From: a virus
Lineage: Duplodnaviria; Heunggongvirae; Uroviricota; Caudoviricetes
Reading direction: 5' to 3' (one strand)
Virus record (IMG/VR): IMGVR_UViG_3300009983_000002
Length of the DNA stretch: 64,000 nucleotides
Shown: positions 16,419 through 39,835 of the stretch, one piece after another
Layout: every line of letters begins with the position of its first letter
Numbering within the stretch: the stretch's first letter is position 1
Translations under genes and position numbers: made by a program
The notes under the pieces: model-generated
The model's input: only the letters and a program-made list of their open reading frames with translations
Told to the model about the DNA's origin: nothing
Database searches by the model: none

Positions 16419-16461
16419 AGGGTCTCCTTCTCTGTCGTGTTTCAAAGTTGGCGCGATTAGA

Positions 16462-18645
16462 TCACGCCTTCTTCGCGTTGTCAACAAGCAAAATGTAGTC
16501 CAACAATTTTTGCATCGTCTCTTCGTCGGCGTGGTAGCGCCACGAGTTGCCGACGATGACCTGGAGCAGCGGGTAGGCTTCGACGACGGCCTTGGCCTCT
16601 TCCACGGGGCCCGGGTGGGCCGCCGGGAGTTCGATGCTGCCCCGCAGGACTTCGAGAACGCGGAAGCGTTCAAGGATGTCCTTGGTGTCTTCATCTTCCG
16701 CGAGTTCCCGATAGAAGCGCACTTCGTTAAGAAGCTTCTTCAGCGGCGAGTCGTCGCCGAGGATCACCGACTTGTCGAGCCCGCTTTCGATCAGGTTCAC
16801 CGCGAACTTCCAGCCGAGTTCGTCAGTGACGTTCTCTTCGTAGTTCTTGAAGGCCGCGACGAAGTCGAGATCGACCGTGAGATCGGTGGCGGCGGCCACG
16901 ATGTCCCAGAAGCTTTCCCAGCCTTCGTGCTTGTTCGGGATGTTCTTGTAGGTCGCGGGAATGCCCAAGAGTTCGAAGTCGGCGTCGAGCTTCTTGAACT
17001 TCTTCAGGGCCTCGATCAGCGAGTTGATGTAGGAGATCGAGACTTCCTGGCCCGCGTTCATCGGGCAGTTCTTCGACAGGTGGACGTAGACGCCGCCGTC
17101 TTCGGGCTGCACGTCGGCCTCTTCGAACTTGTAGCCTTCGAGCACCTTGACCTTCGGAGCGGCCTTGCGGTCGAGCACCGACTGCGGAATCGGAAGGTCT
17201 TCGAGCTTCACGAATTCCGACGCCGGAGGACGCCCGAGTTCGACCAGGAGCTTAGCGAAGCTGCGCTTGCCGAATTGTTCGGTGGTCTGAATCCAAACCA
17301 AGTCAGCACGTTCGCTGTAGCTGAATTGTTCGAAGTATGCGGCGATGCGCGCCGCAATGTGCTTCACCGGAGTGTTCATGTCCTGGATCAGGAAGACCGT
17401 CTTCTGGCCGACTTCCAGGTCAATGTGGTTGCGGTGTTCGAACTTGATCTTCGGGCGCTTGTTGCACACGTCATAGCTGCTGACGAACGCCAGCGAGCAG
17501 CCCAAGCGCGACTTGATGCGCGTGCGGGTGTCGAGTTTCTTCGAGCGCCACACTGCATTCTTGCGGGCGTATTCGCGGAACGAAGTCGGCAGGTTGTAGG
17601 TGTTGAGCACTTCGTTCAAGCGCTTGCGGGCCGTCCAGCGCGTCTTCGCCGTCGAGATCGACTGTTCGATCTTCGCCAGGATTTCGGCCTCGACGAGCTT
17701 CAGATAGCGCGCGATGCTCTTCTTCGTGAGGTCGGTATATTCCAGGTGTTCACGCGAAGGCGTGATGCTGAAGTCGCCGATTTCGCCTTCGATGAAAAGC
17801 GGAGCGCCAAGGAGTTCGCGTTGGTGCTGCGAGAACGAGCCGTCGAGCGCGTGAGTGTCGATGGGATAGATCACGCAGCCTTGCTTCACGGCAGCGCGTT
17901 GCACGAGTTGGTTGGGCTTCACGAGCTTCCAGTTCGTGCCCTCAATCGACGATTCCAGCGGTTCGCCTTCGACCTTCGAGCCCGAGAGAACGGGGAAAAC
18001 ATCGAAGCCCGGCAGCGTCATGCGAGCGGCGCGCTTGAAGTGCTCGACATCCTCGACCTTAACCGAGAACGAGACTTCAAGGCCTTGCTCTTCGTCCGTG
18101 ACCTCATTCGAGAACAGGACGATCTTCGGCTTGCCTTCTTCATTGATGAAGCAGTTGTAGATGCGCTTGCGGCCTTCGAAGCGCACGATGACGTTGAAGC
18201 TGTCGGTGTAGGCGAACGGGGTCTTCGAGCCCAGGCCGAACTTACCGACTTGCTTGTCAGCGGCGTCGAGAATCTTGGCCTTCTGGGCCTGCGTCGCGCC
18301 CTTGGGGACAGCGCCGTCTTTCGTGGATTCGAAGACGCGGGTGTAATTACGCATCACGAATTCGTGGGTCATGGAGACGCCGAAGTCGCGGACGCTGAAG
18401 TAGGGCTCCCATTGCGTCGGCAGGTGGCATTCGAACGGACGCTCCGGGGTGCCGCGCATGGCGTGGGCGTCGAAAGCGTTCGACCACAGTTCTCGGATGA
18501 TCGCTCGCGGCTTGTCCGAATAGATGCCGTCGATCAGAAGGCGGAAGGCCTTCGCGGTCGCGGCAATCGTGAATTCGCCTTCTTCTTCCACGCCATCGAC
18601 GAAAACGTCGCGACCGGAATCGAGGGTATTGGCTTCGGCTCTCAA
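16462..18645 (-). CDS. rIIA-like protein (N-terminal GHKL/HATPase_c-type ATPase domain)
   Basis: 727 aa; RAIIRELWSNAFDAH resembles the Bergerat-fold N-box (ELxxNAxDA) found at the rIIA N-terminus. TTG start with SD AAGGAG 6 nt upstream. Confidence 0.5.
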   Translation of the reverse strand: MRAEANTLDSGRDVFVDGVEEEGEFTIAATAKAFRLLIDGIYSDKPRAIIRELWSNAFDAHAMRGTPERPFECHLPTQWEPYFSVRDFGVSMTHEFVMRNYTRVFESTKDGAVPKGATQAQKAKILDAADKQVGKFGLGSKTPFAYTDSFNVIVRFEGRKRIYNCFINEEGKPKIVLFSNEVTDEEQGLEVSFSVKVEDVEHFKRAARMTLPGFDVFPVLSGSKVEGEPLESSIEGTNWKLVKPNQLVQRAAVKQGCVIYPIDTHALDGSFSQHQRELLGAPLFIEGEIGDFSITPSREHLEYTDLTKKSIARYLKLVEAEILAKIEQSISTAKTRWTARKRLNEVLNTYNLPTSFREYARKNAVWRSKKLDTRTRIKSRLGCSLAFVSSYDVCNKRPKIKFEHRNHIDLEVGQKTVFLIQDMNTPVKHIAARIAAYFEQFSYSERADLVWIQTTEQFGKRSFAKLLVELGRPPASEFVKLEDLPIPQSVLDRKAAPKVKVLEGYKFEEADVQPEDGGVYVHLSKNCPMNAGQEVSISYINSLIEALKKFKKLDADFELLGIPATYKNIPNKHEGWESFWDIVAAATDLTVDLDFVAAFKNYEENVTDELGWKFAVNLIESGLDKSVILGDDSPLKKLLNEVRFYRELAEDEDTKDILERFRVLEVLRGSIELPAAHPGPVEEAKAVVEAYPLLQVIVGNSWRYHADEETMQKLLDYILLVDNAKKA

Positions 18646-18813
18646 GTGTGTCTCCTTCGTTGATGCACCCTTCTACCCAACGCAGGTGGGGCAGTCAACA
18701 ACAATCGTGCTTAATGTCATAAAATAATTTCTGTTGACAGCCCCAACCAGTGTGGTAGAGTCGGGATTGGCTCGACTAAGGGCCCCGGTGACGGGCTTCA
18801 AACGCCTGTTGAT
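18646..18813. promoter_or_regulatory. divergent intergenic control region (leftward promoter for rIIA block, rightward promoter for plus-strand block)
   Basis: 168 bp non-coding between divergent gene blocks. Contains TTGACT, 25 nt, then TGCATCAACGAAGGAG leader (minus strand), CACCTGCGTTGGGT motif, and a second TTGACA (plus, 18747). Confidence 0.5.
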
Positions 18814-19736: not shown

Positions 19737-20359
19737 TCTACGCGACTTCGATGCCGCTCCGGCGGCGCCGGGCTCGACGCAAACCCTCACGGCCACGCGA
19801 TAGCCAGAAGCGTAAGGTTTACGCTGCGGAGAGCGTGCTGAAGGGGAAGATGCCGCTGGCCGACATCGACGCTGCGGCCAAACTCGTCGGCAAGCTCTTG
19901 AACGCTGCGGTCTTCAAGCATCGCTACGATCTCCGGCTTGAACACTCTCCGGTTCACGTTGGCTTGACGCGCCGCGATAGCGGCCACTCCTGGGGCTCGG
20001 TGAAGGGCATCAGGCTGCATCCCGAATGGGGCCTAGACGGCTACATCGTCTGCCACGAGATGGCGCACGTCGTGGCCCTCCGCATCTACGGGCGCGAGAA
20101 CATCGCAGCCCACGGGTGGCAGTGGGCCGAAATCTATCTGATCCTCGTCCTCGCGGGGATGGGTCGCGCCGCCCACGACGAATTGAAGGCGAGCTTCAAG
20201 GCCGCAGGCATCCGGTTTACCAAACCCCGGCAGGGCCGCGTGCTCACCCAGGATCAGCGGAAAGCGCTGGCCGAAAGGCTCGAAGCGGCACGGAAGATGC
20301 GTATTGTCGGCAGCGGAGAAAACCGCTTGACAGGCGCTACGGCTATGGTAGAGTCCTGA
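19733..20359 (+). CDS. putative zinc metallopeptidase (HExxH)
   Basis: 208 aa; YIVCHEMAHVVAL HExxH motif. Basic N-terminus. Exact start (GTG 19733 or ATG 19751) uncertain. Confidence 0.45.
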   Translation: MIYATSMPLRRRRARRKPSRPRDSQKRKVYAAESVLKGKMPLADIDAAAKLVGKLLNAAVFKHRYDLRLEHSPVHVGLTRRDSGHSWGSVKGIRLHPEWGLDGYIVCHEMAHVVALRIYGRENIAAHGWQWAEIYLILVLAGMGRAAHDELKASFKAAGIRFTKPRQGRVLTQDQRKALAERLEAARKMRIVGSGENRLTGATAMVES

Positions 20360-20698: not shown

Positions 20699-21118
20699 AT
20701 GACTACGCCCACCGCCTTCCAGATGATGATCGCTGAACGCATTCTCAGCGAGCCCTTTCCGCGTCCCGGGCAGGATATGTCCAACTCGGAGAAGTGGGCT
20801 TTCGTTCACGCCGTCCTCGACGACAGTGACGACGAAGATTTGGACCCGGAGACCCCGTGGACCCCAACGCTCAACATCTTCGAAGGGCTCGACTGGCAGG
20901 CGGTCTACGACGAGTGGACGGACGAAGACCTCTTCGCCGCCGTCCTCTTCGCCGACCTCCTGAACGATGTCTACTTCGCGATCTTCACGCAAGGCGATGG
21001 AAGCGAGGCCGATCACCTGAACTATCAGACGAGCTTCGTCTGGTGGAAGAAGCTGAAGGACAAGCACGACTCTGATCAGGGCCACGGCCCGTTCAATCAC
21101 AAGGGATGGCTACATTGA
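20699..21118 (+). CDS. hypothetical acidic protein
   Basis: 139 aa, excellent GC3 bias, Asp/Glu-rich. Confidence 0.5.
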   Translation: MTTPTAFQMMIAERILSEPFPRPGQDMSNSEKWAFVHAVLDDSDDEDLDPETPWTPTLNIFEGLDWQAVYDEWTDEDLFAAVLFADLLNDVYFAIFTQGDGSEADHLNYQTSFVWWKKLKDKHDSDQGHGPFNHKGWLH

Positions 21119-21744
21119 AAACGAAGAGAGCGAAAATCCTCGACGACACGCAGTTTCGCGAAATCCTGGGCCGCTTGGGCGAAGCCCAGCATCCAGAACG
21201 CGACCGCGTTATCTTCATCCTCTCCTTCAAGGCCGGGCTGCGCTCGCAAGAAATTGCGGGGCTCGACTGGGAAGACGTGACGGACGCCAAGGGCAACATC
21301 GGGGCCCCGGCCCCTGGCTACGACTCCCGTGGCCGCCAAGTCAACGTGCCGTCGCTCTTCATCCCCGGCGACATCGCGAAGAAAGGCCGTGAGCGCTCCG
21401 TGGCGCTTCACCCAGACCTGATCAAGGCCCTGCGGGCCCTCCAGGCCGTCAGCGAAAAGACGGGCCCCAAGGACCCTGTAATCACGGGAGAGGCGGGGCA
21501 GCGCCTGACCCCTAACTACCTCGCCCAGTTCTTCCTCCGGCGCTTCCGCAAGTTCGGGATGCAGGGCGCTTCCTCTCACTCTGGCCGCCGCACGTTCATC
21601 ACCAAGGCCGCCCAGATGTCGCGTGAAAGCGAAGGCGTCAGCCTCCGCGACGTGCAGCAATGGGCGGGGCACGCCTTCCTCTCGACGACAGAGGCCTACA
21701 TCGAGCCCAGCCCCAGCGCTCACGCCCTGATCTCGCGGCTATAA
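21106..21744 (+). CDS. tyrosine recombinase, catalytic domain only (short integrase-like)
   Basis: 212 aa; R in ILSFKAGLRSQE, HSGRRTFIT (H-x-x-R), GHAFLSTTEAYIE (His...Tyr nucleophile). This is the R..H-R-H..Y pentad order of phage integrase/XerD. No N-terminal core-binding domain. Confidence 0.65.
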   Translation: MATLKTKRAKILDDTQFREILGRLGEAQHPERDRVIFILSFKAGLRSQEIAGLDWEDVTDAKGNIGAPAPGYDSRGRQVNVPSLFIPGDIAKKGRERSVALHPDLIKALRALQAVSEKTGPKDPVITGEAGQRLTPNYLAQFFLRRFRKFGMQGASSHSGRRTFITKAAQMSRESEGVSLRDVQQWAGHAFLSTTEAYIEPSPSAHALISRL

Positions 21745-21755
21745 AAGAGCCGCTT

Positions 21756-21784
21756 GACAACGGAACGGCAGCGGGGTATGGTCG
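21756..21784 (+). promoter_or_regulatory. sigma70-like promoter candidate upstream of HAD/RNA-repair genes
   Basis: TTGACA - 17 nt - TATGGT, about 25 nt upstream of SD AAGGGGGAGG and ATG 21810. Confidence 0.4.
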
Positions 21785-21809
21785 GTTCCATAGAAAGGGG
21801 GAGGCGATC

Positions 21810-22247
21810 ATGAAAACTGCGATCTTCGACATCGACGGCACGATTGCCGACCTCACGCATCGTCGCCAATACATCGCGACGAAGCCCAAGAATTACGCGG
21901 CCTTCCACAAGGGCGTGACCAACGATCTCCCGATCTGGCCGGTCATCAACGTCCTGTTGGCGATGAAGGCCGCTGGTTACAAGATCGTCCTCTGCTCTGG
22001 CCGCGATGGCGACTTCCGGCAGCGCACGGTCGATTGGCTGGCGCGTTTCGGCGTCCCCTATGACGCCCTCTACATGCGGGCCGGTAAGGACTACCGCGCC
22101 GACGACATCATCAAAGAGGAATTGCTTGACCAAATCCTCGCCGATGGCTACAAGCCCGAAATCGTCTTCGACGACCGGGACCGCGTCGTCGCCATGTGGC
22201 GCCGCCGGGGGCTGAAATGTGCTCAAGTCGAACCAGGAGATTTTTGA
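21810..22247 (+). CDS. HAD-superfamily phosphatase (polynucleotide 3'-phosphatase-like)
   Basis: Start at ATG inside track ORF 21660..22247 (SD AAGGGGGAGG). N-terminal FDIDGTIAD is the HAD motif I (DxDGT). 145 aa. Confidence 0.6.
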   Translation: MKTAIFDIDGTIADLTHRRQYIATKPKNYAAFHKGVTNDLPIWPVINVLLAMKAAGYKIVLCSGRDGDFRQRTVDWLARFGVPYDALYMRAGKDYRADDIIKEELLDQILADGYKPEIVFDDRDRVVAMWRRRGLKCAQVEPGDF

Positions 22248-22483
22248 TGCGGAGAAACTTCTACTTCAACTTCTCCAGGTTCGGCCAAGCCGTCGCCGCT
22301 GGCGCCGGGGCCGTGTTCCTCTACGCGCTCGCCAACTGGCTCTATCTCGCATCGCCGACGTGCAGCGACCCCAATGAGGGCAACTTCCTCATGGCCTTGG
22401 CCTGGGGTGTCGGCGGCGCTCATGCCTGGGCCGCCTACTCGACGCTGGTGCTCGTAGGCCGCTCCTTCTCGCGGGAGCACTGA
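22247..22483 (+). CDS. small membrane protein
   Basis: 78 aa; ATG with SD AGGAG, overlaps previous stop. Two hydrophobic helices. Confidence 0.4.
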   Translation: MRRNFYFNFSRFGQAVAAGAGAVFLYALANWLYLASPTCSDPNEGNFLMALAWGVGGAHAWAAYSTLVLVGRSFSREH

Positions 22484-22569
22484 TGAAGCGTGAAGCCGCT
22501 CTCGTCCTCGCTTTCATTTTCTGCCTTTACGGGCTGCCGATTCTCGTCTATGGGCTGGGCCTGAAATGA
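22483..22569 (+). CDS. tiny hydrophobic peptide (28 aa)
   Basis: MKREAALVLAFIFCLYGLPILVYGLGLK. Translationally coupled at both ends (TGATG upstream, ATGA downstream). Confidence 0.3.
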   Translation: MKREAALVLAFIFCLYGLPILVYGLGLK

Positions 22570-23804
22570 CGCTCCACTATCCATTCCCGCAAATCACCCA
22601 TATCGACCAAGTCCGCAAGGCGATCTTCAATCGCCCGGAATACATCGTGGTCGAGAAGGAAGGCGGCTACACCGTCGTCAATTACGTCTACAGCGGCGAA
22701 GACACGTTCCCGCCTGTGATCGACCGCGAGGTCTCGCAGACCGACTATCTGACTGGGCTCCGCGACGCCACGGACGCCGCGATCTTGCGCGAGTGCCGGG
22801 GCTTGATCTTCTGCTCCGAGACCGGCGTCGTGATCTCGCGGCGCTTCCACAAATTTTTCAATGCCGGTGAGCGTGCTGACGTGGTCCCCGAGGCTATGAT
22901 CGGAGCCGAATACGACGTGCTGGAAAAGCTCGACGGCTCGATGATCACACCAATCCCTCTCAAGGGCGGCTTCTGGCGCTGGGGCACGAAGATGGGCGTC
23001 ACCGACGTTGCCCTGCCCGTCGAAGAATTCGTGCTCGACAACAGCCAGTATGTCGAACTCGCCGACTATTGCAAACAAACAGACTGGACGCCGATCTTCG
23101 AGTGGTGCTCGCCGCTCAACCGCATCGTGCTTCAACACACGACGCACAATTTGATCCTAACCGCCATCCGCCACAACGTCACTGGCGAATATATGTCCTA
23201 TGCGCGCATGTCGGCGCTCGCTGGACGGTTCGACATCCCGGTTGTGCGCCGCGTGAACGCTGACATCTTGGCGAACTATCGCGAAAGCGAAGGGGTCGAA
23301 GGCTACGTCTTGCGTTTCGCCAACGGCCACATGATGAAATTCAAGACCGAGTGGTATGTTCGTCTGCACAAGACGAAGGACAAGATCGCTCGCGAAGTCG
23401 ATGTCGCTCAACTCGTGTTCGACGATCAGGCGGACGACTTGCTGCCGCTGCTCGACGAAGACGACAAGGCGCGTTTGATCGAATATCGTGCTGCCTTCTG
23501 GCGGCGCTTCGAAGACGTGAAGAACGGCATCAGCCTCATGCTCGACCAGTGGCGTGGCGAAGGCGACCGCCGCAACTTCGCGATCCACACGGACCCTTGC
23601 GCCTCACAACCGCGTCGCGATCTCACCTATCCGTCGCCGTGGGCTCGCACCATCATGTTCACGGCATGGGACGGCAAAGTTCCTGTTGACACCGCAGTGA
23701 GGATTGCGGTATCGAAGGGGCTTGTGAACAACCGCAAGTTCGCGGAACTCAAAGAAGGCCTGTTGCAGGGCCTGCGCTGGAAGGAAGCCTGGGAAGTTGA
23801 GTAA
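22566..23804 (+). CDS. ATP-dependent polynucleotide ligase, RNA ligase 1-like
   Basis: 412 aa; nucleotidyltransferase motif I VLEKLDGSM (KxDG). Flanked by phosphatase and kinase genes as in RNA-repair cassettes. Confidence 0.5.
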   Translation: MTLHYPFPQITHIDQVRKAIFNRPEYIVVEKEGGYTVVNYVYSGEDTFPPVIDREVSQTDYLTGLRDATDAAILRECRGLIFCSETGVVISRRFHKFFNAGERADVVPEAMIGAEYDVLEKLDGSMITPIPLKGGFWRWGTKMGVTDVALPVEEFVLDNSQYVELADYCKQTDWTPIFEWCSPLNRIVLQHTTHNLILTAIRHNVTGEYMSYARMSALAGRFDIPVVRRVNADILANYRESEGVEGYVLRFANGHMMKFKTEWYVRLHKTKDKIAREVDVAQLVFDDQADDLLPLLDEDDKARLIEYRAAFWRRFEDVKNGISLMLDQWRGEGDRRNFAIHTDPCASQPRRDLTYPSPWARTIMFTAWDGKVPVDTAVRIAVSKGLVNNRKFAELKEGLLQGLRWKEAWEVE

Positions 23805-24300
23805 GCCGATTCTTCTTGTCCTCGTGGGCTTGCCGTATTCCGGCAAGTCAACCTACCGCGCCAAGGCCTTGAAGAGCCTCGTGCTCGCGGGACCGACTAT
23901 CGTCCTCTCCAGCGACGACAAGATCGACGAAGTCGCTGCGGCGCTGGGCAAGCGCTACGACGAAGTATGGTCGGAGGCCAAGGACGCCGCCGACGCCTAC
24001 GTCAAAGAGAATTTCCGCAACGCCGTAGAGGCCGGGCTCAACATCATCTGGGATCAGACGAACCTCGGGCTCAAGAAGCGCCGCTCGATCTTGGCGCAGG
24101 CTCCGGGCTACACGAAGATGGCCGTCTACTTCGATCTCGACGAAGAGACGGAAGACGCCCGCCGTGCGGCGCGTCCCGAACGCTTCATCCCCAAATCAGT
24201 CACCGCTCAAATGCGTGCTTCCTACGTTGTGCCGACGCTGGAAGAAGGGTTCGACTACGTCGGACCCAGCACCGACACGGCTTTCCCGGAGACCGCATGA
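23797..24300 (+). CDS. P-loop polynucleotide kinase (Pnk kinase-domain-like)
   Basis: 167 aa; Walker A VGLPYSGKST at N-terminus. Size and position fit a 5'-OH polynucleotide kinase domain. Confidence 0.5.
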   Translation: MSKPILLVLVGLPYSGKSTYRAKALKSLVLAGPTIVLSSDDKIDEVAAALGKRYDEVWSEAKDAADAYVKENFRNAVEAGLNIIWDQTNLGLKKRRSILAQAPGYTKMAVYFDLDEETEDARRAARPERFIPKSVTAQMRASYVVPTLEEGFDYVGPSTDTAFPETA

Positions 24301-24755
24301 CCACAATCGCTTATGACGGCCACGAGATGACCGGCGACCGCCGCGTCACCGAAGGCGGCGTGATCTTGGGCTCGATGACGAAGGTCTTCAAAATCCAAGC
24401 GGAGTTTGAAGGCGAAGGCCCTTGGTTCCTCGTGGGGATCGTCGGCAATTCCTCCTACATGGGGGCCATGCTCAACTACGTTCGCTCGCACTTCCGCCCC
24501 GGCGACAAGCCGAAGATCGCTGAAGGCGAGCCCGATGTCGAAGCCCTTGTCGTCTACGAAGATGGCCGCGTGGCCTACTTCGAGGCCCCGGACTACAATC
24601 CCCAGTTCATCGACGCGGGCTTTCACGCCCTGGGCTCTGGGGCGAAGTTCGCGAAGACCGCCATGTATCTCGGGCGGCCCGCGAAGGCAGCGGTCTTGAC
24701 AGCCGCCGAATTCGATGTCTACACAGGCAAAGAAACAGACACCGTTCGTTTTTGA
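24297..24755 (+). CDS. Ntn-hydrolase, HslV/proteasome beta-like
   Basis: Start at ATGA inside track ORF 23967..24755. MTTIAYDGHEMTGDRRVTEGGVILGSMTKVFKI parallels HslV MTTIVSVRRNG...GNTVMKGNARKV, with Thr right after Met as candidate nucleophile. Confidence 0.45.
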   Translation: MTTIAYDGHEMTGDRRVTEGGVILGSMTKVFKIQAEFEGEGPWFLVGIVGNSSYMGAMLNYVRSHFRPGDKPKIAEGEPDVEALVVYEDGRVAYFEAPDYNPQFIDAGFHALGSGAKFAKTAMYLGRPAKAAVLTAAEFDVYTGKETDTVRF

Positions 24756-25099
24756 TGCCCTCCGGGGCGAAGGAGAGCCCCATGATCAACTGCACCGTCG
24801 AATTCATGTGCCAGGGGCAGCCCGCCCGTGGCCGCGTTGTCGGGCGTGAAGGTGCAGATTTATTGATTTTAATCGGCCACAAGGTCTACCGCGAACTCGT
24901 CGGGAATGTGGTGTTAACCAATCTCGTTAACCACCAAATCTTGTATACCGACTACGATCTCGTCCAGAAAGTGGGCCGCGTAGTCGAGCACGACACCGTC
25001 ACCTGCGCCATCTTCGTTGAGAATTCGCTTGACAAAAAGCGAACTCTCATTGATAAACCTCGTGTTAACTTTCTATTGAAGGGCGGCCAGCGTGCGTAG
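24752..25099 (+). CDS. hypothetical protein
   Basis: 115 aa; region has locally lower GC. Confidence 0.35.
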   Translation: MMPSGAKESPMINCTVEFMCQGQPARGRVVGREGADLLILIGHKVYRELVGNVVLTNLVNHQILYTDYDLVQKVGRVVEHDTVTCAIFVENSLDKKRTLIDKPRVNFLLKGGQRA

Positions 25100-25292
25100 G
25101 TTCGAAGTCACCCTCACCTTTAGGAAGACCAACGGCGACACCTGGAACGAAGCCTATGGCCGTGATGCCGTGAGCCTTCCAGACGCCATCCAACTCGTTA
25201 CCGGGGACCTTCCCCTCCATCAGCGTGCGTGGCTTGTCCACGTCAACGCCGTGGACCCGACTCCAATCGCCCGTCTTCAAGCCGTAGCATGA
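25092..25292 (+). CDS. hypothetical small protein
   Basis: 66 aa; coupled ATGA into next gene. Confidence 0.35.
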   Translation: MRRFEVTLTFRKTNGDTWNEAYGRDAVSLPDAIQLVTGDLPLHQRAWLVHVNAVDPTPIARLQAVA

Positions 25293-28200
25293 ACCGCCTC
25301 ACCAACGAAGAATCGTTCTTCGAAGTTTTGTCCAACGTATTCGGTGACGCCAAAGGCGACGCCGTCTTTTTCGCTGACGGCGACAACCGTCTGGAGTCGC
25401 GTGACTACGATGAAATCGTAGAGGCGCTAGGCGACGGCGCGTCCCTCACCCTCGTAACTTCCAAGATGGAAATTCTTGGGATCGCCGCCGAGAGTATCGG
25501 CGAATTCCCGACTCCTACGTTCATCGTCGGCCACGAAGAGCGCGACTTCGAATTCAACGTCTGGCTCTTCAAGACGCCGGTCGATTTTACTTTCGGCTCG
25601 AAGCTGTCGCTGGGGCTGGAAGCTGCGGCGAAGAAGCTCGACGAGAACTCGCACATTGGTTCGCAATTCCCAGTGCCTGGGGTGAATGGCTGGGACTTCA
25701 TTGGCGATGTCGGCCCGCGTTGGGATGTCGCTGAATTTCTCGATGCCGTTGGGATCGACGCCGACTCCGTCCAGTCGCAAGTCGAGAAGGTATTGTTCCC
25801 GAGCGGGAGCAATAACGCGGAATCCGACGAAAACCCGCCTGATGTTACCGTTCGGGAACAATCGAGCGCTGAAGCCACAAATGTTACCGATGGGGAACAA
25901 CTGAAGATCGGCGACGCGCTGATCTACGGTGACTTCGACGACGCCTTCTTGGCGACGAAGTTGAAACTCGGGGTCAGCGTCAAAGGCGCGAAGACGAAGC
26001 CCGGCGAGTGGCAGAACGCCGAACTCACAGTCACCGATTTGCTCCTGCTGCTCTCCGAACATGAGCAAGGGGCGAAGGACGGAAAGTGCATCCTTCAAGG
26101 CGAAGTCATCGACGGCGAGCGCAAGGCCCAAAGCGTTCGCGCGTGTCACATTCTCATGCTCGACCTCGATACCGGCGAGGACTTGCAGGACACGATCAAG
26201 AAGCTCCAGCAACTGGGGCTGGCCGCTGCCGTGTGGACTACGCACAGTCACTTGAAGCCCTCGACGAGCATTCGCAAGGATGCCGTGGTCCGGTTCATCA
26301 AGGAGAAGCGCGAGCCTAACCTGGATGACGTGAAGCGGTATCTGCTCGAAGTCAAGCGGTATCGTCCGTATATTATCGACTCGGCTGCGTTGGGTCCAGC
26401 AGAGCACACGAAAGAAGGTCTTCAGTTGGTGGTCAACCACCTGCCGATGCCAAAGTTCCGTGTGATGTTCTTTTTGTCCAAGCCTTTTGTGTTTGCCGAC
26501 TTCCTCGACAACCGCACGGCCAACGAAGCCTGGAAAGCTGCCTATGAGCGCACGTCGGACATGCTTGGCGCGTTCTACGACAAGGCTTGCACCGACCCGT
26601 CGCGTCTCATGTATACGCCGCGACACGGCGAGGGCGCGAAGGGTTACAGCATCCACTTCATCGCAGGCAAGCCCCTCGATCTCGACGCGGCCCCGGCGCC
26701 CGCCGACGCCCGGCAAGCGGCCTTCTCTGCGGCTGCTGCCCAAACCTCTGTCATCGACAAACGCGACGTAAAGTCAAGCGACTATCAAACGTCGTGGCTT
26801 CGCGGCTTCTTGGCGAAGAACAGCGACGTGTTCCAGGTCGCCGACTTCTTTGAAGCCTACGGCGAACCCCGTGGCCCACGCAATGGGGCCGGGGCTCACT
26901 ACCGCTGCCCGAACGATGACGAGCACACGAACGCAGGCGACCCCGAAGACAAAGGCTTCTACTGCGTGAACGCAGGCGAAGGCGACTATGTCGAGGGCTT
27001 CATCGCTAAGTGTATGCACGCTTCCTGCGCCGAGAAGCATCGCGGCCACATGCTCGACTTGATGGTCGTCGAACACGATCTCAGCGAAGAAGACCTGAAT
27101 CAGTTTTGCGACGAAGCGCTACGTCCCGATCAAGAACCGGCGAAGCAAGAGGCTCCTAAGCAACAGGCCCCCATCGTTCTCGAAGCTGAAGAAGGCGACG
27201 AAGACCAGACAGACAGCGATGACGACTATACGGCTTCGTCGGCCTACGACGAGCCACATATCAAGCGCGCCATGCAGACCATGAATAAAGAATGGGCTGT
27301 TGTTACGCTTGGAACAGACGTTCGTATTATGCGGGAGCCGAAGCAAGCTGGTAAAATGCCGAGCTTCCACGGTATCGAAGCCTTCCGCAATCTCTATTCA
27401 AATAAGAAAATCAACGTCCCTGTAGAGGGTGGCTACAAAGCTGTTCCAGTGACCAAGTTGTGGCTTGAATGGCCGCAGCGGCGCACGTTCTTTGATGGCG
27501 TGATCTTCGAGCCAGAAGAGCAAAATCCTGACGCCTATAATTTGTGGCGGGGATACCCCACGCAAGCTAAGCGTGGCTCTTGGTCTATGCTGCGTGAGCA
27601 CGTCTACGACAACATCTGCGCTGGCGATGAAGAGCGCTTCAACTGGTTCATGACGTGGTTGGCGCAGATCGTCCAGTTCCCGGGCCGCAAGATGGGTTCG
27701 GCGGTCGCGATCAAGGGCTTGAAGGGCACGGGCAAATCTAAGCTCTTCGAGTGGGTGAAGAAAGGCCTCGGCAATCACGCGATCAAAGTCAGCCAGAAGA
27801 AACACATTGTCGGCGACTTCAACGGCCACCACAAAGGTGTGACGTTGATGGTCTGCGAAGAAGCCTTCTGGGCTGGTGATCACGCTGCGGGCAACGCCCT
27901 GAAAGACCTGATCACCAGCGACACCATGATGTTCGAACAGAAGGGCATCGACGCGGTTCCGATCTCAAACTATGTGCGGCTGGCTTTCATCTCCAACGAA
28001 CACTGGATTGTCCCCGCCGGACTCGAAGACGAGCGTCGCTATTTTGTGATGGAGTGTAAGGACACCCGTCGCGGTGATATTCCTTTCTTCATCGCTATCG
28101 ACGAGCAAATGGAGAATGGCGGGCTTGAGGCCATGTGGTATGAGTTGTCCAACTGGGACGCTCACGAACTCTATCCCGAGAAGGGCTGGAACATTCTCCG

Positions 28201-28606
28201 CACGCCTCCTATGACGGAAGAGCTAGTCGATCAGGCTATGGAAACGATTGAAGCCTGGGACAAATTCTTCATCGGCTTCATTGAAGACGGCAAACTCGAA
28301 GCATCTTCTCACCCTGATCTCCCGGAAATCATTCTCGAAGACGACGAAACAAACCATGTCAGCATCACCGCGTTGCGCCTTCACTTCGAAGCGTATCTCA
28401 CCCATCTTGGCGGCAACGCTCGCCACAAGCTTGGCAATCGTGGCTTCCTTAAAAAGCAAGCCATTAAATACCTCGGTATCGAGGACAAGTCGGTTGCCCA
28501 TCGTTTCGGAGGCGAGGTCGTTCGCTGCTACAAATGTCCTCCCCTTCCCGAAATCCGCGCGCGTATCACGCAAAAGCTGAAGATCAAACTTGACTTGCCA
28601 GATTAA
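25289..28606 (+). CDS. DNA primase/helicase (prim-pol N-terminal region, Zn-binding segment, SF3/D5-like helicase C-terminal)
   Basis: 1105 aa from ATG 25289. Cys/His cluster HYRCPNDDEH...CVNAG...CMHASCAEKH. C-terminal Walker A AIKGLKGTGKSKL and Walker B LMVCEEAFW typical of P4/D5-type primase-helicases. Confidence 0.65.
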   Translation: MNRLTNEESFFEVLSNVFGDAKGDAVFFADGDNRLESRDYDEIVEALGDGASLTLVTSKMEILGIAAESIGEFPTPTFIVGHEERDFEFNVWLFKTPVDFTFGSKLSLGLEAAAKKLDENSHIGSQFPVPGVNGWDFIGDVGPRWDVAEFLDAVGIDADSVQSQVEKVLFPSGSNNAESDENPPDVTVREQSSAEATNVTDGEQLKIGDALIYGDFDDAFLATKLKLGVSVKGAKTKPGEWQNAELTVTDLLLLLSEHEQGAKDGKCILQGEVIDGERKAQSVRACHILMLDLDTGEDLQDTIKKLQQLGLAAAVWTTHSHLKPSTSIRKDAVVRFIKEKREPNLDDVKRYLLEVKRYRPYIIDSAALGPAEHTKEGLQLVVNHLPMPKFRVMFFLSKPFVFADFLDNRTANEAWKAAYERTSDMLGAFYDKACTDPSRLMYTPRHGEGAKGYSIHFIAGKPLDLDAAPAPADARQAAFSAAAAQTSVIDKRDVKSSDYQTSWLRGFLAKNSDVFQVADFFEAYGEPRGPRNGAGAHYRCPNDDEHTNAGDPEDKGFYCVNAGEGDYVEGFIAKCMHASCAEKHRGHMLDLMVVEHDLSEEDLNQFCDEALRPDQEPAKQEAPKQQAPIVLEAEEGDEDQTDSDDDYTASSAYDEPHIKRAMQTMNKEWAVVTLGTDVRIMREPKQAGKMPSFHGIEAFRNLYSNKKINVPVEGGYKAVPVTKLWLEWPQRRTFFDGVIFEPEEQNPDAYNLWRGYPTQAKRGSWSMLREHVYDNICAGDEERFNWFMTWLAQIVQFPGRKMGSAVAIKGLKGTGKSKLFEWVKKGLGNHAIKVSQKKHIVGDFNGHHKGVTLMVCEEAFWAGDHAAGNALKDLITSDTMMFEQKGIDAVPISNYVRLAFISNEHWIVPAGLEDERRYFVMECKDTRRGDIPFFIAIDEQMENGGLEAMWYELSNWDAHELYPEKGWNILRTPPMTEELVDQAMETIEAWDKFFIGFIEDGKLEASSHPDLPEIILEDDETNHVSITALRLHFEAYLTHLGGNARHKLGNRGFLKKQAIKYLGIEDKSVAHRFGGEVVRCYKCPPLPEIRARITQKLKIKLDLPD

Positions 28607-38563: not shown

Positions 38564-38787
38564 AGCATGAAGCGATTTACATCGTCAGTTACGCCAGCAG
38601 CCGTCTTGGCTGCCGTCGCACCTACGCTTTCACGCCGTTCGACGACTCGATGCTTTCTAGCGTCAAGCAACTTCTCGCTGACGAAACCGTCGATCCCGAC
38701 AGCATTGAAATTGAGGTCTACGAACCGGCCAGGGTTCTCAAGGCCCAAGATTTGCTTGGAGTCGGGGCTGGTGTCCTGGTCGGGTAA
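38560..38787 (+). CDS. hypothetical small protein (GTG start)
   Basis: 75 aa; frame chosen on GC3 bias over the alternative ATG frame (38567). Confidence 0.35.
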   Translation: MKHEAIYIVSYASSRLGCRRTYAFTPFDDSMLSSVKQLLADETVDPDSIEIEVYEPARVLKAQDLLGVGAGVLVG

Positions 38788-38797
38788 GGAGAAGGAA

Positions 38798-39835
38798 GTG
38801 GACGAAGATTTGACACGCGGCGACTTCACGGCGTTCCCCAGCATCCGGGGCTTTGCGAACATCTGCAAAGAAATCGCGATTGTCTACCCGTTCCCCAACC
38901 GCCCAACGATCCCCTTCAACTCGAAGGTGAAGCTCCACGGCACGAACGCCGGGGTCCGCATTTACGCCGATGGTCGCGTGGTGGCCCAGAAGCGCACCGA
39001 CGACGTGACGCCTGAAGACGACAACGCGGGGTTCGCGGCCTGGGTCGCGACCATGCGTGACTACTTCGGCTCCCTCGCCATCGCGCTGCCGCCGAACACC
39101 TACGTCGTGATCCACGGCGAATGGGCGGGCCCTGGGGTCCAGAAGAAGGCCGCAGTCGCGAGCATCCCCGAGAAATCTTTCTTCGTGTTCTCCATCGAGA
39201 CCAGCGAAGGCCACATTGTCGAGCCCGACGAAATCCTGGCATTCATGAGCGACGACGGCAAGCTCCCGGCGCGTGTCTACGTCCTGCCGTGGTTCTCGCG
39301 TCTCTCCGTCACCATCGACTTCAACGACCGCGAAGGCACGGAAGCCGTCGCCGCGACCATGAACGAAGTCGTCGGCGAAATCGACAAGGTCGATCCCTAC
39401 ATCCAAGAAGTGTTCGGGGTCGAAGGCGTTGGCGAAGGCCTCGTTTTCTATCCTCGCGGGCCCGGCTACGAAAAGCTTCGCGGTGATCGCGGCTTGTCTC
39501 TGCTCTTCAAGGTCAAGGGCGCGAGCCACGGCGAGAAGGGTGCGGGCAAAGCCGCACGCACGTCGGCGATCCCCAGCAACACCGCAACGGAATTCGCGAA
39601 GACCCACGTCCACGAAGATCGCCTTGAACAAGGCCTGAAGGCCGTGTGCGGCAACGATCTCCCGACGATGAAGCATATCGGCCCGTTCCTGGGCTGGATT
39701 GGCCGCGACGTTGAGAAAGAAACAGTGGACGAGCGTGAAGCGTCTGGGCTTGATTGGCGCTCGCACTGTGCGGGGCCCGTGGCCTTGATTGCACGCGAAT
39801 GGCTGTTCAAGAAGATCAACGCGGTGACGTTGTGA
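38798..39835 (+). CDS. RNA ligase 2-like nucleotidyltransferase
   Basis: GTG start with SD AAGGAGAAGG. Motif I SKVKLHGTNAG (K-x-H-G-x-N as in T4 Rnl2). 345 aa. Confidence 0.5.
   Translation: MDEDLTRGDFTAFPSIRGFANICKEIAIVYPFPNRPTIPFNSKVKLHGTNAGVRIYADGRVVAQKRTDDVTPEDDNAGFAAWVATMRDYFGSLAIALPPNTYVVIHGEWAGPGVQKKAAVASIPEKSFFVFSIETSEGHIVEPDEILAFMSDDGKLPARVYVLPWFSRLSVTIDFNDREGTEAVAATMNEVVGEIDKVDPYIQEVFGVEGVGEGLVFYPRGPGYEKLRGDRGLSLLFKVKGASHGEKGAGKAARTSAIPSNTATEFAKTHVHEDRLEQGLKAVCGNDLPTMKHIGPFLGWIGRDVEKETVDEREASGLDWRSHCAGPVALIAREWLFKKINAVTL

What the first reader, a model, noticed from the sequence alone, without database searches (positions are those of the whole stretch)
21810..24300. Split RNA-repair cassette: HAD 3'-phosphatase, Rnl1-like ligase and P-loop polynucleotide kinase
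In T4, Pnkp (kinase plus phosphatase in one protein) and Rnl1 heal and seal tRNAs cut by host anticodon nucleases. Here the same three activities appear as separate adjacent genes (21810..22247 HAD; 22566..23804 KxDG ligase; 23797..24300 kinase), with a tiny hydrophobic peptide between them.

The cassette is flanked by a short tyrosine recombinase and an HslV-like hydrolase, and is preceded by a TTGACA-17-TATGGT promoter.

This is a candidate counter-defence module against tRNA-cleaving host systems (PrrC, RloC, Retron-like or PARIS-like), in a different gene organisation from T4.
Basis: partly seen in the sequence, partly recalled or inferred. Interest (0 to 1): 0.7.

Follow-up and report, generated by a model that had tools for sequence, protein, structure and literature searches.

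The report
Split phage RNA-repair gene cassette
A metagenomic phage carries the three enzymes that phage T4 uses to mend cut tRNAs (end-phosphatase, RNA ligase, end-kinase) as three separate genes rather than two, but this layout is common in uncultured phages and is already labelled in several sequenced ones.

Summary
21810-22247 is a stand-alone T4-Pnkp-type HAD phosphatase. 22566-23804 is a full-length Rnl1-family RNA ligase. 23797-24300 is a stand-alone P-loop kinase of the polynucleotide-kinase clade. The catalytic residues I checked are present, with one exception in the kinase. The genes lie in one tightly packed + strand block behind a sigma-70-like promoter.

[quoted passage not shown] The probable substrate is tRNA cut by host anticodon nucleases.

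It is not new. Of 80 IMG/VR phage loci with a homologue of this kinase, 53 also have Rnl1, 45 have a stand-alone Pnkp-type HAD and 42 have both. None has a kinase-HAD fusion. Roseobacter phage DSS3P8 and its relatives share the same gene order, and some GenBank records already call the kinase "polynucleotide kinase".

The flanking tyrosine recombinase is a backbone gene of this phage group. The HslV-like gene belongs to a family widespread in phages without RNA repair. The small hydrophobic ORFs (two, not one) are not conserved.

An Rnl2-type ligase lies 14.8 kb downstream.

Verdict: a new member of a known kind, of modest interest.

The parts
21754..21782 (+). Sigma-70-like promoter candidate, TTGACA-17 nt-TATGGT, 28 nt upstream of the HAD start codon
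   Evidence: Consensus scan gives 10 of 12 matches. The -35 TTGACA and its position are kept in the 84%-related contig L004, where TAGAAG follows after 17 nt. Two more TTGACA-16-TAGAGT sites lie in the same + strand block at 18734 and 20327. Function is not shown.
21810..22247 (+). Stand-alone Pnkp-type HAD (DxDxT) phosphatase, 145 aa. Predicted RNA 2',3'-cyclic-phosphate and 3'-phosphate end-healing enzyme.
   Evidence: PF25109 HAD_PNKP at 1.1e-40, covering profile positions 2-143 of 143. phrog_505 and phrog_415 'polynucleotide kinase' at about 1e-42. PDB: Pnkp1 4xrp 5e-23, the isolated T4 Pnkp phosphatase domain 5uj0 9e-16, T4 Pnkp 1ltq 8e-15. D7, D9, T11, R18, S63, R65, D98, K102, D121 and D122 align with T4 D165, D167, T169, R176, S211, R213, D254, K258, D277 and D278. 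The roles of D165, D167, S211, K258 and D278 are taken from PMC3592404.
22247..22483 (+). Small ORF of 78 aa with two hydrophobic segments. Variable filler gene, not a conserved part of the module.
   Evidence: The start overlaps the HAD stop, and GC3 is 0.86. There is no family match. In the close relative L004 it is replaced by an unrelated soluble 66-aa ORF.
22483..22569 (+). Small ORF of 28 aa, one hydrophobic segment (MKREAALVLAFIFCLYGLPILVYGLGLK). Coding status uncertain.
   Evidence: It overlaps the stop of the previous ORF and the start of the ligase. GC3 is only 0.66. It is found only on the identical contig L003 and is absent from L004.
22566..23804 (+). Rnl1-family (T4 RnlA-like) ATP-dependent RNA ligase, 412 aa. 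Predicted sealing enzyme.
   Evidence: PF09511 at 2.3e-28. phrog_562 at 8e-66, covering residues 30-393. T4 Rnl1 2c5u at 9.5e-23. R78, K96, F98, K121-L-D123-G124, K142, E179, E245-G246, K258 and K260 are invariant in 30 homologues and align with the T4 motifs. AF2 model has pLDDT 89.3 with an all-helical C-terminal part, residues 262-398. The best Foldseek match is T4 Rnl1, E 9e-20 over 400 columns, followed by fungal Trl1 ligase domains.
23797..24300 (+). Stand-alone P-loop kinase of the polynucleotide-kinase clade, 167 aa, TTG start overlapping the ligase stop by 8 nt. Predicted 5'-OH RNA kinase.
   Evidence: PF13671 AAA_33 at 2.2e-19. A family profile against the PDB gives PSTK 1.9e-11, C. 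thermocellum Pnkp kinase 1e-10, Pnkp1 1.7e-9, T4 Pnk kinase domain 4.8e-8 and mammalian PNKP 1e-5. AF2 model has pLDDT 89.6. Top Foldseek matches are mammalian PNKP, PSTK, CthPnkp (TM 0.73), Trl1 KIN and T4 Pnkp (TM 0.65). G16, K17, S18, S38, D40, D86-Q-T-N89, K93 and R95 are invariant. Of 80 IMG/VR homologues, 53 lie near an Rnl1, 45 near a stand-alone HAD_PNKP, and none is fused to one.
38567..39835 (+). Second RNA ligase, Rnl2 type, 422 aa, 14.8 kb downstream. Possibly part of the same phage RNA-repair complement. This link is inferred and not shown.
   Evidence: phrog_548 'RNA ligase' at 1.9e-37. PF09414 at 4.2e-11. T4 Rnl2 1s68 at 3.8e-6. TIGR02307 at 1.1e-7, below its cut-off.

Best explanation
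The cassette is a phage RNA end-healing and sealing pathway of the T4 Pnkp/Rnl1 type, with the two healing activities on separate small proteins.

Proposed steps (all inferred from homology; none assayed):
1. [quoted passage not shown]
2. The 145-aa HAD protein attacks the cyclic or 3'-phosphate through Asp7, with Asp9 as general acid-base, and leaves a 3'-OH.
3. The 167-aa P-loop kinase phosphorylates the 5'-OH, using the K17/S18 P-loop and Asp40 as general base.
4. The Rnl1 ligase is adenylylated on Lys121, transfers AMP to the 5'-phosphate and seals the nick. Its helical C-terminal domain probably directs it to tRNA.

The genes are expressed from a sigma-70-like promoter. They sit in the block that diverges from rIIA/rIIB in a large phage related to DSS3P8-like and phiCbK-like phages of Alphaproteobacteria. 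In this lineage the repair genes lie between two backbone genes, the tyrosine recombinase and the primase.
For: Domain identity:
- All three proteins pass Pfam gathering scores and match solved T4, Pnkp1 or CthPnkp structures by sequence and by fold.
- Catalytic residues are conserved for the phosphatase, the ligase and the kinase P-loop plus general-base Asp.

Genomic association:
- Among 80 IMG/VR loci with a kinase homologue, 53 have Rnl1, 45 have a stand-alone HAD_PNKP and 42 have both.
- Gene orders vary: Rnl1-kin-HAD 25 loci, HAD-kin-Rnl1 6, int-HAD-Rnl1-kin-HslV 5. The three genes stay together while their surroundings change.
- This speaks for a functional unit and for the kinase being the missing Pnkp half.

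Operon structure:
- HAD/sm78, sm78/sm28, sm28/ligase, ligase/kinase and kinase/HslV-like starts and stops all overlap.
- The promoter lies at 21754-21782, and its -35 element is kept in a relative.

Context:
- DSS3P8 has the same order, as do Logan contigs L006 to L008.
- phiCbK has int followed by the primase with no repair genes between them.
- The phage also has an Rnl2-type ligase, as T4 does.
- The T4 precedent for Pnk plus Rnl1 reversing PrrC cleavage is cited in PMC12409363 and PMC7824862.
Against: - No biochemical or genetic data exist for this phage or, as far as I could find, for any split version.
- The arginine that contacts the acceptor nucleotide's phosphate in T4 (R38) and CthPnkp (R41) is Ile43 here and is hydrophobic throughout the family. 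The way the acceptor is bound, and possibly the substrate, may therefore differ.
- The ligase falls below the NCBIfam equivalog cut-off (125.9 against 242.25 bits). Its own C-terminal domain does not reach E 0.01 against PF20819.
- The host and its nucleases are unknown.
- T4 Pnkp-type enzymes also work on DNA ends, so an RNA-only role is not proven.
- In 24 of the 80 kinase loci neither partner was found. Some of these loci are truncated.
Confidence: 0.72

Rival explanations
1. The three enzymes are general nucleic-acid end-processing enzymes. They would serve phage DNA or RNA metabolism (for example cleaning 3'-phosphate/5'-OH DNA ends during replication, recombination or host-DNA breakdown, or RNA turnover) rather than acting as a dedicated counter-defence against tRNA cleavage.
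For: The cassette lies among replication and nucleotide-metabolism genes: primase 25289-28606, UvrD-like helicase, DNA polymerase, thymidylate synthase and DNA ligase. The top fold match of the kinase is mammalian PNKP, a DNA-repair enzyme. From established knowledge, T4 Pnkp acts on DNA as well as RNA in vitro.
Against: The partner is an Rnl1-type ligase with the extra helical domain, not a DNA ligase. The phage has a separate ATP-dependent DNA ligase at 39975-41033. The kinase family travels with Rnl1 in 53 of 80 loci. The kinase profile's best sequence match in the PDB is a tRNA kinase, PSTK.
Confidence: 0.13
2. The 167-aa P-loop protein is not a polynucleotide 5'-kinase. It would be a different kinase: either acting on a tRNA-linked moiety, as PSTK does, or on a small molecule or nucleotide. 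The cassette would then lack a true 5'-healing step.
For: The Pfam hit is only the generic AAA_33 family, with weak KTI12 and Zeta_toxin hits. The best profile match in the PDB is PSTK, not a Pnk. The T4 R38 / Cth R41 equivalent is missing. In 24 of the 80 IMG/VR loci neither partner was detected.
Against: Every PDB sequence match below E 1e-4 is a polynucleotide kinase or a tRNA kinase. CthPnkp kinase superposes at TM 0.73 and rmsd 2.9 A. The P-loop, the general-base Asp and the DQTN motif are invariant. In 24 loci a Pnkp-type HAD gene starts within 300 nt of the kinase's end, in the T4 domain order but in a separate frame. Several GenBank annotators reached the same assignment.
Confidence: 0.07
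3. The functional unit is larger: a five-gene module int-HAD-Rnl1-kinase-HslV-like. The catalytic-domain-only tyrosine recombinase and the Ntn-hydrolase would take part in the counter-defence, for example by acting on 3'-phosphate/5'-OH ends or by degrading a host nuclease.
For: The order int-HAD...Rnl1-kin-HslV recurs in the window, L004, DSS3P8, L006/L007 and in IMG/VR loci L015, L016, L018 and L026. L030 has the same order without a detected HslV-like gene. L008 and L045 have int-HAD and a nearby kin...HslV. The recombinase appears to keep the R...K...HxxR...H...Y catalytic set, read from the sequence. The HslV-like protein keeps an N-terminal Thr and a GSG motif, also read.
Against: The recombinase is a backbone gene. 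In phiCbK, CcrBL9, Lacusarx and Mwe-JY26 it is not followed by a HAD gene, and phiCbK, Lacusarx and Mwe-JY26 show no repair gene nearby at all. The HslV-like family occurs in 278 phage records, mostly small enterobacterial phages. The two neighbourhoods inspected have no RNA-repair neighbours. The commonest arrangement of the trio, Rnl1-kin-HAD in 25 loci, has neither gene. The loci that share the five-gene order are probably one related phage group, so the synteny is explained by common descent.
Confidence: 0.06

Closest known systems
Bacteriophage T4 tRNA repair: Pnkp (pseT) plus Rnl1 (gp63), with Rnl2 elsewhere in the genome
   Same: The same three chemistries and the same protein families. 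The HAD aligns with the T4 phosphatase domain through to the C-terminal ...MWRRxG..C.QV..GDF, with all checked catalytic residues kept. The ligase aligns with T4 Rnl1 through motifs I-V and is its best fold match. The kinase profile matches the T4 kinase domain at 4.8e-8. An Rnl2-type ligase is also present.
   Different: The kinase and the phosphatase are separate genes, 1.5 kb apart, with the ligase between them. The gene order is phosphatase, ligase, kinase. The kinase is closer to the CthPnkp, Pnkp1 and PSTK kinases than to T4's and lacks the R38 equivalent. The ligase is only about 24% identical to T4 Rnl1 and falls below the NCBIfam equivalog cut-off. The phage is related to phages of Alphaproteobacteria rather than to a T4-like myovirus.
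DSS3P8-like roseophages (Roseobacter phage DSS3P8 gp098-gp107; Ruegeria phages V10 and RpAliso; DSS3_MAL1; Phaeobacter phage MD18; Rhodobacter phage RcXuper)
   Same: DSS3P8 has the same gene order downstream of rIIA: tyrosine recombinase, stand-alone HAD ('polynucleotide kinase' gp099), variable small genes, RNA ligase gp105, AAA kinase gp106, proteasome-beta-like gp107. Identities are ligase 35-40% across these phages, kinase 42-47%, and HAD 57% for DSS3P8. RpAliso and RcXuper already label the kinase 'polynucleotide kinase'.
   Different: No nucleotide-level similarity. Five unrelated small genes, including a cell-wall hydrolase, lie between the HAD and the ligase in DSS3P8, against two small hydrophobic ORFs here. 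NAD-salvage genes follow the cassette in those phages, whereas the primase follows it here.
Bacterial RNA repair systems Pnkp1-Rnl-Hen1 (Capnocytophaga gingivalis, 4xrp) and C. thermocellum Pnkp/Hen1
   Same: Pnkp1 is the best solved-structure match of the HAD, at 5e-23. The kinase profile matches the CthPnkp and Pnkp1 kinase domains at 1e-10 and 1.7e-9, and CthPnkp superposes at TM 0.73. The healing-and-sealing logic is the same (PMC4411300, listed).
   Different: No Hen1 methyltransferase was seen among the window genes that were scanned. The ligase here is Rnl1-type and stand-alone. CthPnkp uses a metallophosphoesterase rather than a HAD and carries its own ligase-like domain; that point is from my own knowledge and was not tested here.
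Fungal/plant tRNA ligase Trl1 (LIG-KIN-CPD)
   Same: An Rnl1-like ligase is followed directly by a P-loop polynucleotide kinase, in the same order as the window's ligase-kinase gene pair. Trl1 LIG domains are the next-best fold matches of the ligase after T4 Rnl1. Mucorales Trl1 KIN appears among the kinase's fold matches.
   Different: Trl1 is a single polypeptide. It uses a 2H cyclic phosphodiesterase, not a HAD phosphatase, and it requires a 2'-phosphate at the junction (PMC6379707 abstract). Sequence similarity of the kinase to Trl1 KIN is confined to the P-loop.

Membership tests
Rnl1 (T4 RnlA) RNA ligase family | Pfam PF09511 RNA_lig_T4_1 above its gathering score | tested here: met
   100 bits against a cut-off of 28.3, covering profile positions 1-227 of 227.
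Rnl1 (T4 RnlA) RNA ligase family | Covalent nucleotidyltransferase motifs: I (KxDG, adenylylated Lys), III, IV (EG) and V (KxK) | tested here: met
   K121-L-D123-G124, E179, E245-G246, K258 and K260 align with T4 K99-E-D-G, the FEF glutamate, EGYV and KIK. They are invariant in 30 homologues.
Rnl1 (T4 RnlA) RNA ligase family | Rnl1-specific residues upstream of and between the motifs (T4 R54, K75, F77, K119; residue list recalled from the mutational literature) | tested here: met
   R78, K96, F98 and K142 align with the T4 ECRG, EKFFN and KSKG positions and are invariant.
Rnl1 (T4 RnlA) RNA ligase family | C-terminal all-helical domain (PF20819 T4_Rnl1_C), the tRNA-specificity module | tested here: inconclusive
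   The window protein itself does not reach E 0.01 against PF20819, but 23 of 30 full-length homologues at 40-48% identity do. The AF2 model is all-helical over residues 262-398. Foldseek aligns 400 columns to T4 Rnl1, but with a global rmsd of 15 A.
Rnl1 (T4 RnlA) RNA ligase family | NCBIfam equivalog TIGR02308 above its curated cut-off | tested here: not met
   125.9 bits against a cut-off of 242.25. It is a divergent family member, not an equivalog by NCBI's threshold.
Rnl1 (T4 RnlA) RNA ligase family | ATP-dependent sealing of 3'-OH/5'-phosphate RNA ends in a tRNA anticodon loop | not testable with these tools
   Needs an enzyme assay.
T4 Pnkp-type 3'-phosphatase (HAD_PNKP, DxDxT acylphosphatase) | Pfam PF25109 above its gathering score, matched end to end | tested here: met
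   139.5 bits against a cut-off of 27.6, covering profile positions 2-143 of 143.
T4 Pnkp-type 3'-phosphatase (HAD_PNKP, DxDxT acylphosphatase) | DxDxT nucleophile and acid-base pair, phosphate-binding Ser and Lys, and Mg-binding Asp (T4 D165, D167, S211, K258, D278) | tested here: met
   D7, D9, T11, S63, K102 and D121-D122 align with these positions. Residue roles are from PMC3592404.
T4 Pnkp (bifunctional kinase-phosphatase polypeptide) | Kinase and phosphatase domains fused in one protein | tested here: not met
   The HAD is a 145-aa stand-alone ORF and the kinase a 167-aa stand-alone ORF 1.5 kb away. None of 45 related loci has the two in one reading frame.
Polynucleotide 5'-kinase clade of P-loop kinases (T4 Pnk, CthPnkp, Pnkp1, mammalian PNKP, Trl1 KIN) | Walker A GxxxxGK(S/T) and the general-base Asp after strand 2 (T4 D35, Cth D38) | tested here: met
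   G11-L-P-Y-S-G16-K17-S18-T19 and S38-x-D40. G16, K17, S18, S38 and D40 are invariant in 22 family members. D40 aligns with the Cth SSD Asp.
Polynucleotide 5'-kinase clade of P-loop kinases (T4 Pnk, CthPnkp, Pnkp1, mammalian PNKP, Trl1 KIN) | Arg three residues after the general base, which contacts the acceptor nucleotide's 3'-phosphate (T4 R38, Cth R41; role recalled from the literature) | tested here: not met
   The aligned position is Ile43. The family consensus is D-x-Y-I-E. Other invariant basic residues, K93 and R95, might substitute, but this is not shown.
Polynucleotide 5'-kinase clade of P-loop kinases (T4 Pnk, CthPnkp, Pnkp1, mammalian PNKP, Trl1 KIN) | Fold and profile similarity specifically to Pnk-type kinases | tested here: met
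   All PDB profile matches below E 1e-4 are PSTK, CthPnkp, Pnkp1, T4 Pnk, Trl1 KIN or mammalian PNKP. The top Foldseek matches are the same set, at TM 0.61-0.74 normalised to the query (0.62-0.74 for those named here).
Polynucleotide 5'-kinase clade of P-loop kinases (T4 Pnk, CthPnkp, Pnkp1, mammalian PNKP, Trl1 KIN) | Phosphorylation of 5'-OH RNA or DNA ends | not testable with these tools
   Supported only by genomic association with Rnl1 (53 of 80 loci) and HAD_PNKP (45 of 80).
Phage anti-anticodon-nuclease system (T4 Pnkp/Rnl1 against PrrC) | A host tRNA-cleaving nuclease whose damage the enzymes reverse during infection | not testable with these tools
   The host is unknown: the window comes from a metagenomic contig, ENA ERZ27279440 k141_33558, 84.9 kb.

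The most novel reading that the evidence does not exclude
The stand-alone kinase is not just a detached T4 Pnk domain. Its best profile match in the PDB is the tRNA kinase PSTK, and it lacks the acceptor-phosphate arginine of T4 and CthPnkp. In at least 24 of 80 phage loci its start lies within 300 nt of the end of an Rnl1 gene, and in the window the two genes overlap by 8 nt. It could therefore be a tRNA-shape-specific 5'-kinase that works as a physical complex with Rnl1. That would be a two-gene phage counterpart, and possibly an evolutionary relative, of the LIG-KIN core of eukaryotic Trl1. The HslV-like protease that follows it in this lineage could be an added counter-defence component.
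Probability: 0.1. Interest if true: 0.5.

Novelty: new member of a known kind. Interest (0 to 1): 0.25.

Why it matters
tRNA-cleaving immune systems are increasingly recognised, among them PrrC, RloC, Cas13 collateral cleavage and Cas12a3, some of which appear in the papers listed. Phage RNA repair is one of the few known ways to reverse that damage rather than bypass it.

This locus adds one more example from a poorly sampled group of phages related to those of Alphaproteobacteria. Together with the census made here, it shows that the three-gene form (Rnl1, a stand-alone kinase and a stand-alone Pnkp-type HAD) is a common layout among the uncultured phages that carry this kinase family. In GenBank isolates the kinase family matches only 46 records, against 3,014 records that match the HAD domain.

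That is useful for annotation, because many of these kinases are still labelled 'hypothetical', 'ATPase', 'zeta toxin' or 'polyA polymerase'. It also helps in choosing small, separable enzymes for biochemistry. It does not change the current understanding of the pathway.

Tried and rejected
- **Nucleotide search.** Megablast of 21000-25200 against the phage collection found nothing. Relatives were reached only at the protein level.
- **Recombinase as part of the module.** I tested this because int-HAD adjacency recurs (note). I rejected it because the recombinase is not followed by a HAD in phiCbK, CcrBL9, Lacusarx or Mwe-JY26, and in phiCbK int is followed by the primase with only two small genes between them.
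- **HslV-like protein as part of the module.** Rejected as unsupported. The family is in 278 phage records, mostly without RNA repair, and the two neighbourhoods inspected show none. Its sequence similarity to solved proteasome subunits is only marginal.
- **Small hydrophobic ORFs as conserved components.** Rejected, because an unrelated ORF occupies that position in L004.
- **tRNA genes.** None were found in the 64-kb window, so there is no tRNA-supply strategy visible here.
- **Bacterial genomes.** A scan for the kinase family found only 7 loci, all MAG contigs. The pattern used was narrow, so this is not a census.
- **Key literature.** I could not obtain the main comparative paper on RNA-repair systems, Burroughs and Aravind 2016. 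I relied on the related jumbo-phage survey instead.
- **Nucleotidyltransferase at 5788-6510.** The phrog_9528 protein was checked as a possible RNA-repair partner. It has no Pfam, NCBIfam or PDB match.
- **My own gene caller.** A crude GC3-based caller picked wrong-frame ORFs over the HAD and the kinase. I corrected this by per-gene GC3 and by homology.

Full report
**What is there**

The + strand between 21.1 and 28.6 kb is one tightly packed gene block. Its genes, in order:
- 21106-21744: a 212-aa protein with only the catalytic domain of a tyrosine recombinase (PF00589, E 1.7e-16; phrog_216, 8.6e-36).
- 21810-22247: a 145-aa HAD protein.
- 22247-22483 and 22483-22569: two small hydrophobic ORFs of 78 and 28 aa.
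- 22566-23804: a 412-aa ligase.
- 23797-24300: a 167-aa P-loop protein with a TTG start that overlaps the ligase stop by 8 nt.
- 24297-24755: a 152-aa HslV-like protein whose start overlaps the kinase stop as ATGA (phrog_1040, 2e-28).
- Two small genes, then a 1105-aa primase-like protein (DUF5906; phrog_1156).

GC3 of the real genes is 0.77-0.82. The long overlapping alternative-frame ORFs have GC3 of 0.62-0.64.

A TTGACA-17-TATGGT site lies at 21754-21782. Two TTGACA-16-TAGAGT sites lie upstream in the same block. In a relative whose kinase is 84% identical, the -35 hexamer and its position are kept.

**Where the window comes from**

The exact kinase and ligase proteins are encoded on an 84.9-kb ENA metagenome contig. 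A relative lies on a 28-kb JGI contig, with kinase 84% and ligase 69% identical. There is no nucleotide-level match to any sequenced phage.

The cassette diverges from an rIIA/rIIB pair at 14853-18645 on the minus strand. Further upstream are DNA polymerase, helicase, thymidylate synthase and dNMP kinase genes.

The nearest isolates by protein similarity are large phages of Alphaproteobacteria: DSS3P8-like roseophages, Caulobacter phage Cr30 and the phiCbK/Bertelyvirus group.

**The phosphatase**

The HAD matches Pfam HAD_PNKP end to end, at 1.1e-40. By sequence it matches three solved structures:
- the phosphatase domain of Capnocytophaga Pnkp1, at 5e-23;
- the isolated T4 Pnkp phosphatase domain, which is also 145 aa, at 9e-16;
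- full-length T4 Pnkp, at 8e-15.

In that alignment D7, D9, T11, S63, K102 and D121-D122 fall on T4 D165, D167, T169, S211, K258 and D277-D278. PMC3592404 describes these residues as the nucleophile, the acid-base catalyst, the phosphate ligands and the Mg ligand, and shows that this active site also opens 2',3'-cyclic phosphates. This is a bona fide Pnkp-type phosphatase that stands alone.

**The ligase**

It passes PF09511 at 2.3e-28 and matches phrog_562 over residues 30-393. It aligns with T4 Rnl1 at 9.5e-23.

Residues that are invariant in an alignment of 30 homologues and aligned with T4:
- K121-x-D123-G124, equivalent to T4 K99 in motif I.
- E179, E245-G246, K258 and K260, in motifs III to V.
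- R78, K96, F98 and K142, the Rnl1-specific positions.

The C-terminal domain is divergent. The window protein does not itself reach E 0.01 against PF20819, although 23 of its 30 homologues do. The AlphaFold model (pLDDT 89.3) is all-helical from residue 262 to 398. Its best PDB match is T4 Rnl1 over 400 columns, at E 9e-20, followed by fungal Trl1 ligase domains. The high global rmsd points to a different relative orientation of the two domains.

The protein is below NCBI's equivalog cut-off. I call it a divergent Rnl1-family member rather than a T4 RnlA orthologue.

**The kinase**

On its own, the sequence gives only the generic AAA_33 family and weak PDB hits. I built a family alignment from metagenomic and phage homologues. 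Its profile then matched, in order, PSTK, CthPnkp kinase, Pnkp1, the T4 Pnk kinase domain, Trl1 KIN and mammalian PNKP, and nothing else below E 1e-4.

The AlphaFold model (pLDDT 89.6) retrieves the same set by fold. CthPnkp superposes at TM 0.73 and T4 Pnkp at TM 0.65.

The P-loop, the general-base Asp40, a DQTN motif and several basic residues are invariant. One expected feature is missing: the Arg three residues after the general base (T4 R38, Cth R41) is Ile43 here and is hydrophobic across the family.

**Genomic association**

This is the strongest argument that the P-loop protein is the missing half of Pnkp. I collected the 80 best IMG/VR loci encoding a homologue and annotated their neighbours with the window's proteins.

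| Feature within the fetched flank (up to 8 kb each side), same strand | Loci (of 80) |
|---|---|
| Rnl1 homologue | 53 |
| Stand-alone Pnkp-type HAD | 45 |
| Both | 42 |
| Kinase and HAD in one reading frame | 0 |
| HAD gene starting within 300 nt of the kinase's end | 24 |

The arrangements differ: Rnl1-kin-HAD 25 loci, HAD-kin-Rnl1 6, int-HAD-Rnl1-kin-HslV 5. Extras include an HNH endonuclease between ligase and kinase and a metallophosphoesterase downstream. The trio therefore persists while its context changes. Some loci are truncated, so the counts are lower bounds.

In representative bacterial genomes the family turned up only on 7 MAG contigs (the search pattern was narrow).

**What does not belong to the module**

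- **The recombinase.** It is a backbone gene of this phage group. It sits after rIIA/rIIB in phiCbK and Lacusarx and also occurs in CcrBL9 and Mwe-JY26, and in none of these four is it followed by a HAD. In phiCbK the next large gene after it is the primase homologue. The repair genes therefore occupy the stretch between int and primase.
- **The HslV-like protein.** It follows the kinase only in the window's wider lineage. Its family occurs in 278 phage records, mostly small enterobacterial phages, and the two neighbourhoods I inspected contain no repair genes.
- **The two small hydrophobic ORFs.** The 84% relative has an unrelated soluble ORF in their place. DSS3P8 has five other small genes there. 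The interval between HAD and ligase is a variable spot.

**Is it known?**

Yes, in kind.
- The T4 paradigm is textbook.
- The jumbo-phage survey PMC7824862 describes phage Rnl1 and Rnl2 ligases working with polynucleotide kinases and HAD phosphatases. It says the 'PKN-HAD' family is 'usually' fused to the kinase, which implies that unfused forms were seen.
- DSS3P8 has the same gene order, annotated as tyrosine recombinase, 'polynucleotide kinase' (really the HAD), RNA ligase, AAA protein and proteasome beta subunit.
- RpAliso, RcXuper and several Bacillus phages already label the gene next to the RNA ligase 'polynucleotide kinase'.

I found no biochemical study of a split system, but my literature access was limited.

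**Mechanism and confidence**

I consider it about 0.8 likely that the three proteins have the predicted activities. I consider it somewhat over 0.5 likely that their biological role is to reverse host tRNA cleavage. The overall confidence in the explanation as stated is 0.72.

Shown by computation: family membership, catalytic residues, folds, operon packing and recurrent co-occurrence. Inferred: substrates, order of action, tRNA specificity, and the existence of a host nuclease.

**Also in the window**

An Rnl2-type ligase lies at 38567-39835, next to an ATP-dependent DNA ligase on the opposite strand. The phage therefore mirrors T4's full set of Pnkp activities, Rnl1 and Rnl2.

In Lacusarx, a 24-tRNA array lies about 0.8 kb downstream of the recombinase gene, after one small ORF. 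The window has no tRNA gene. This hints that related phages place either tRNA supply or tRNA repair at the same spot.

Noticed in passing
window 38567-39835 (+) and 39975-41033 (-): There is a second RNA ligase, of the Rnl2 type (phrog_548 1.9e-37; PF09414 4e-11; T4 Rnl2 1s68 4e-6). It sits back to back with an ATP-dependent DNA ligase (PF01068 plus the OB domain). The phage therefore has Rnl1, Rnl2 and both Pnkp activities, like T4.
   Followed up: partly
window 21106-21744 (+); L009, L010, L011, L012: A 212-aa tyrosine recombinase with the catalytic domain only appears to keep its R/K/HxxR/H/Y residues. It is conserved in 64 phage records, including phiCbK-like, Bertelyvirus, DSS3P8-like, Lacusarx and Microcystis phage Mwe-JY26. 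In phiCbK, Lacusarx and DSS3P8 it lies just downstream of rIIA/rIIB. Its role in these apparently lytic phages is unknown.
   Followed up: partly
window 24297-24755 (+): The HslV-like Ntn-hydrolase begins MTTIAYDG, which would leave an N-terminal Thr after Met removal, and has a GSG motif. It follows the kinase in the window, L004, DSS3P8 and L006/L007, and lies near it in L008, L045 and L056. The family is widespread in unrelated small phages, and its function in phages is unknown.
   Followed up: partly
L012 (Sphingobium phage Lacusarx) 9367-13556; L009 (CcrBL9) 82-1426: In Lacusarx, a 24-tRNA array starts about 0.8 kb downstream of the recombinase gene, where the window has the repair cassette. 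CcrBL9 has tRNAs and a tmRNA-like gene about 5.5 kb upstream of its recombinase. Related phages may place alternative answers to tRNA loss at the same spot.
   Followed up: no
L005 7499-8014, and 15 or more IMG/VR loci (for example L017, L022, L035, L048, L051): In many marine-type loci an HNH endonuclease gene sits between Rnl1 and the kinase, and a metallophosphoesterase often follows the HAD. These may be a mobile endonuclease inside the repair operon and a second phosphoesterase.
   Followed up: no
window 18734-18761 and 20327-20354 (+): Two identical-pattern promoter-like sites, TTGACA-16-TAGAGT with a TG extension, lie upstream in the same + strand block. Together with the site at 21754 they suggest a set of host-sigma-70-type promoters.
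   Followed up: no
window 5788-6510 (-): A 240-aa protein matches phrog_9528 'nucleotidyltransferase' at 1.4e-55 but has no Pfam, NCBIfam or PDB match. Whether it is an RNA-repair-associated nucleotidyltransferase (RlaP-like) is unresolved.
   Followed up: partly
window 29323-29760, about 29792-30277, 35505-36071, 37660-38286, 41649-42911 (-), 14279-14737 (-): Other accessory genes are an SspB-like adaptor, a YAcAr (SLOG) domain protein, DUF1643, a cysteine-dioxygenase-like protein, a BCS1-like AAA ATPase and a peptide deformylase. Several of these families are linked to host takeover or conflict systems in the literature.
   Followed up: no
L014 (Bacillus phage pW2) 6001-6990; rows H86, H101, H106: In Bacillus phages the homologous kinase is the N-terminal part of a 329-aa protein directly after the RNA ligase. 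That protein is probably a fused Pnkp with a different phosphoesterase. In Campylobacter and Sinorhizobium phages the homologue is annotated 'polyA polymerase', 'zeta toxin' or 'ATPase', so annotation of this family is inconsistent.
   Followed up: no
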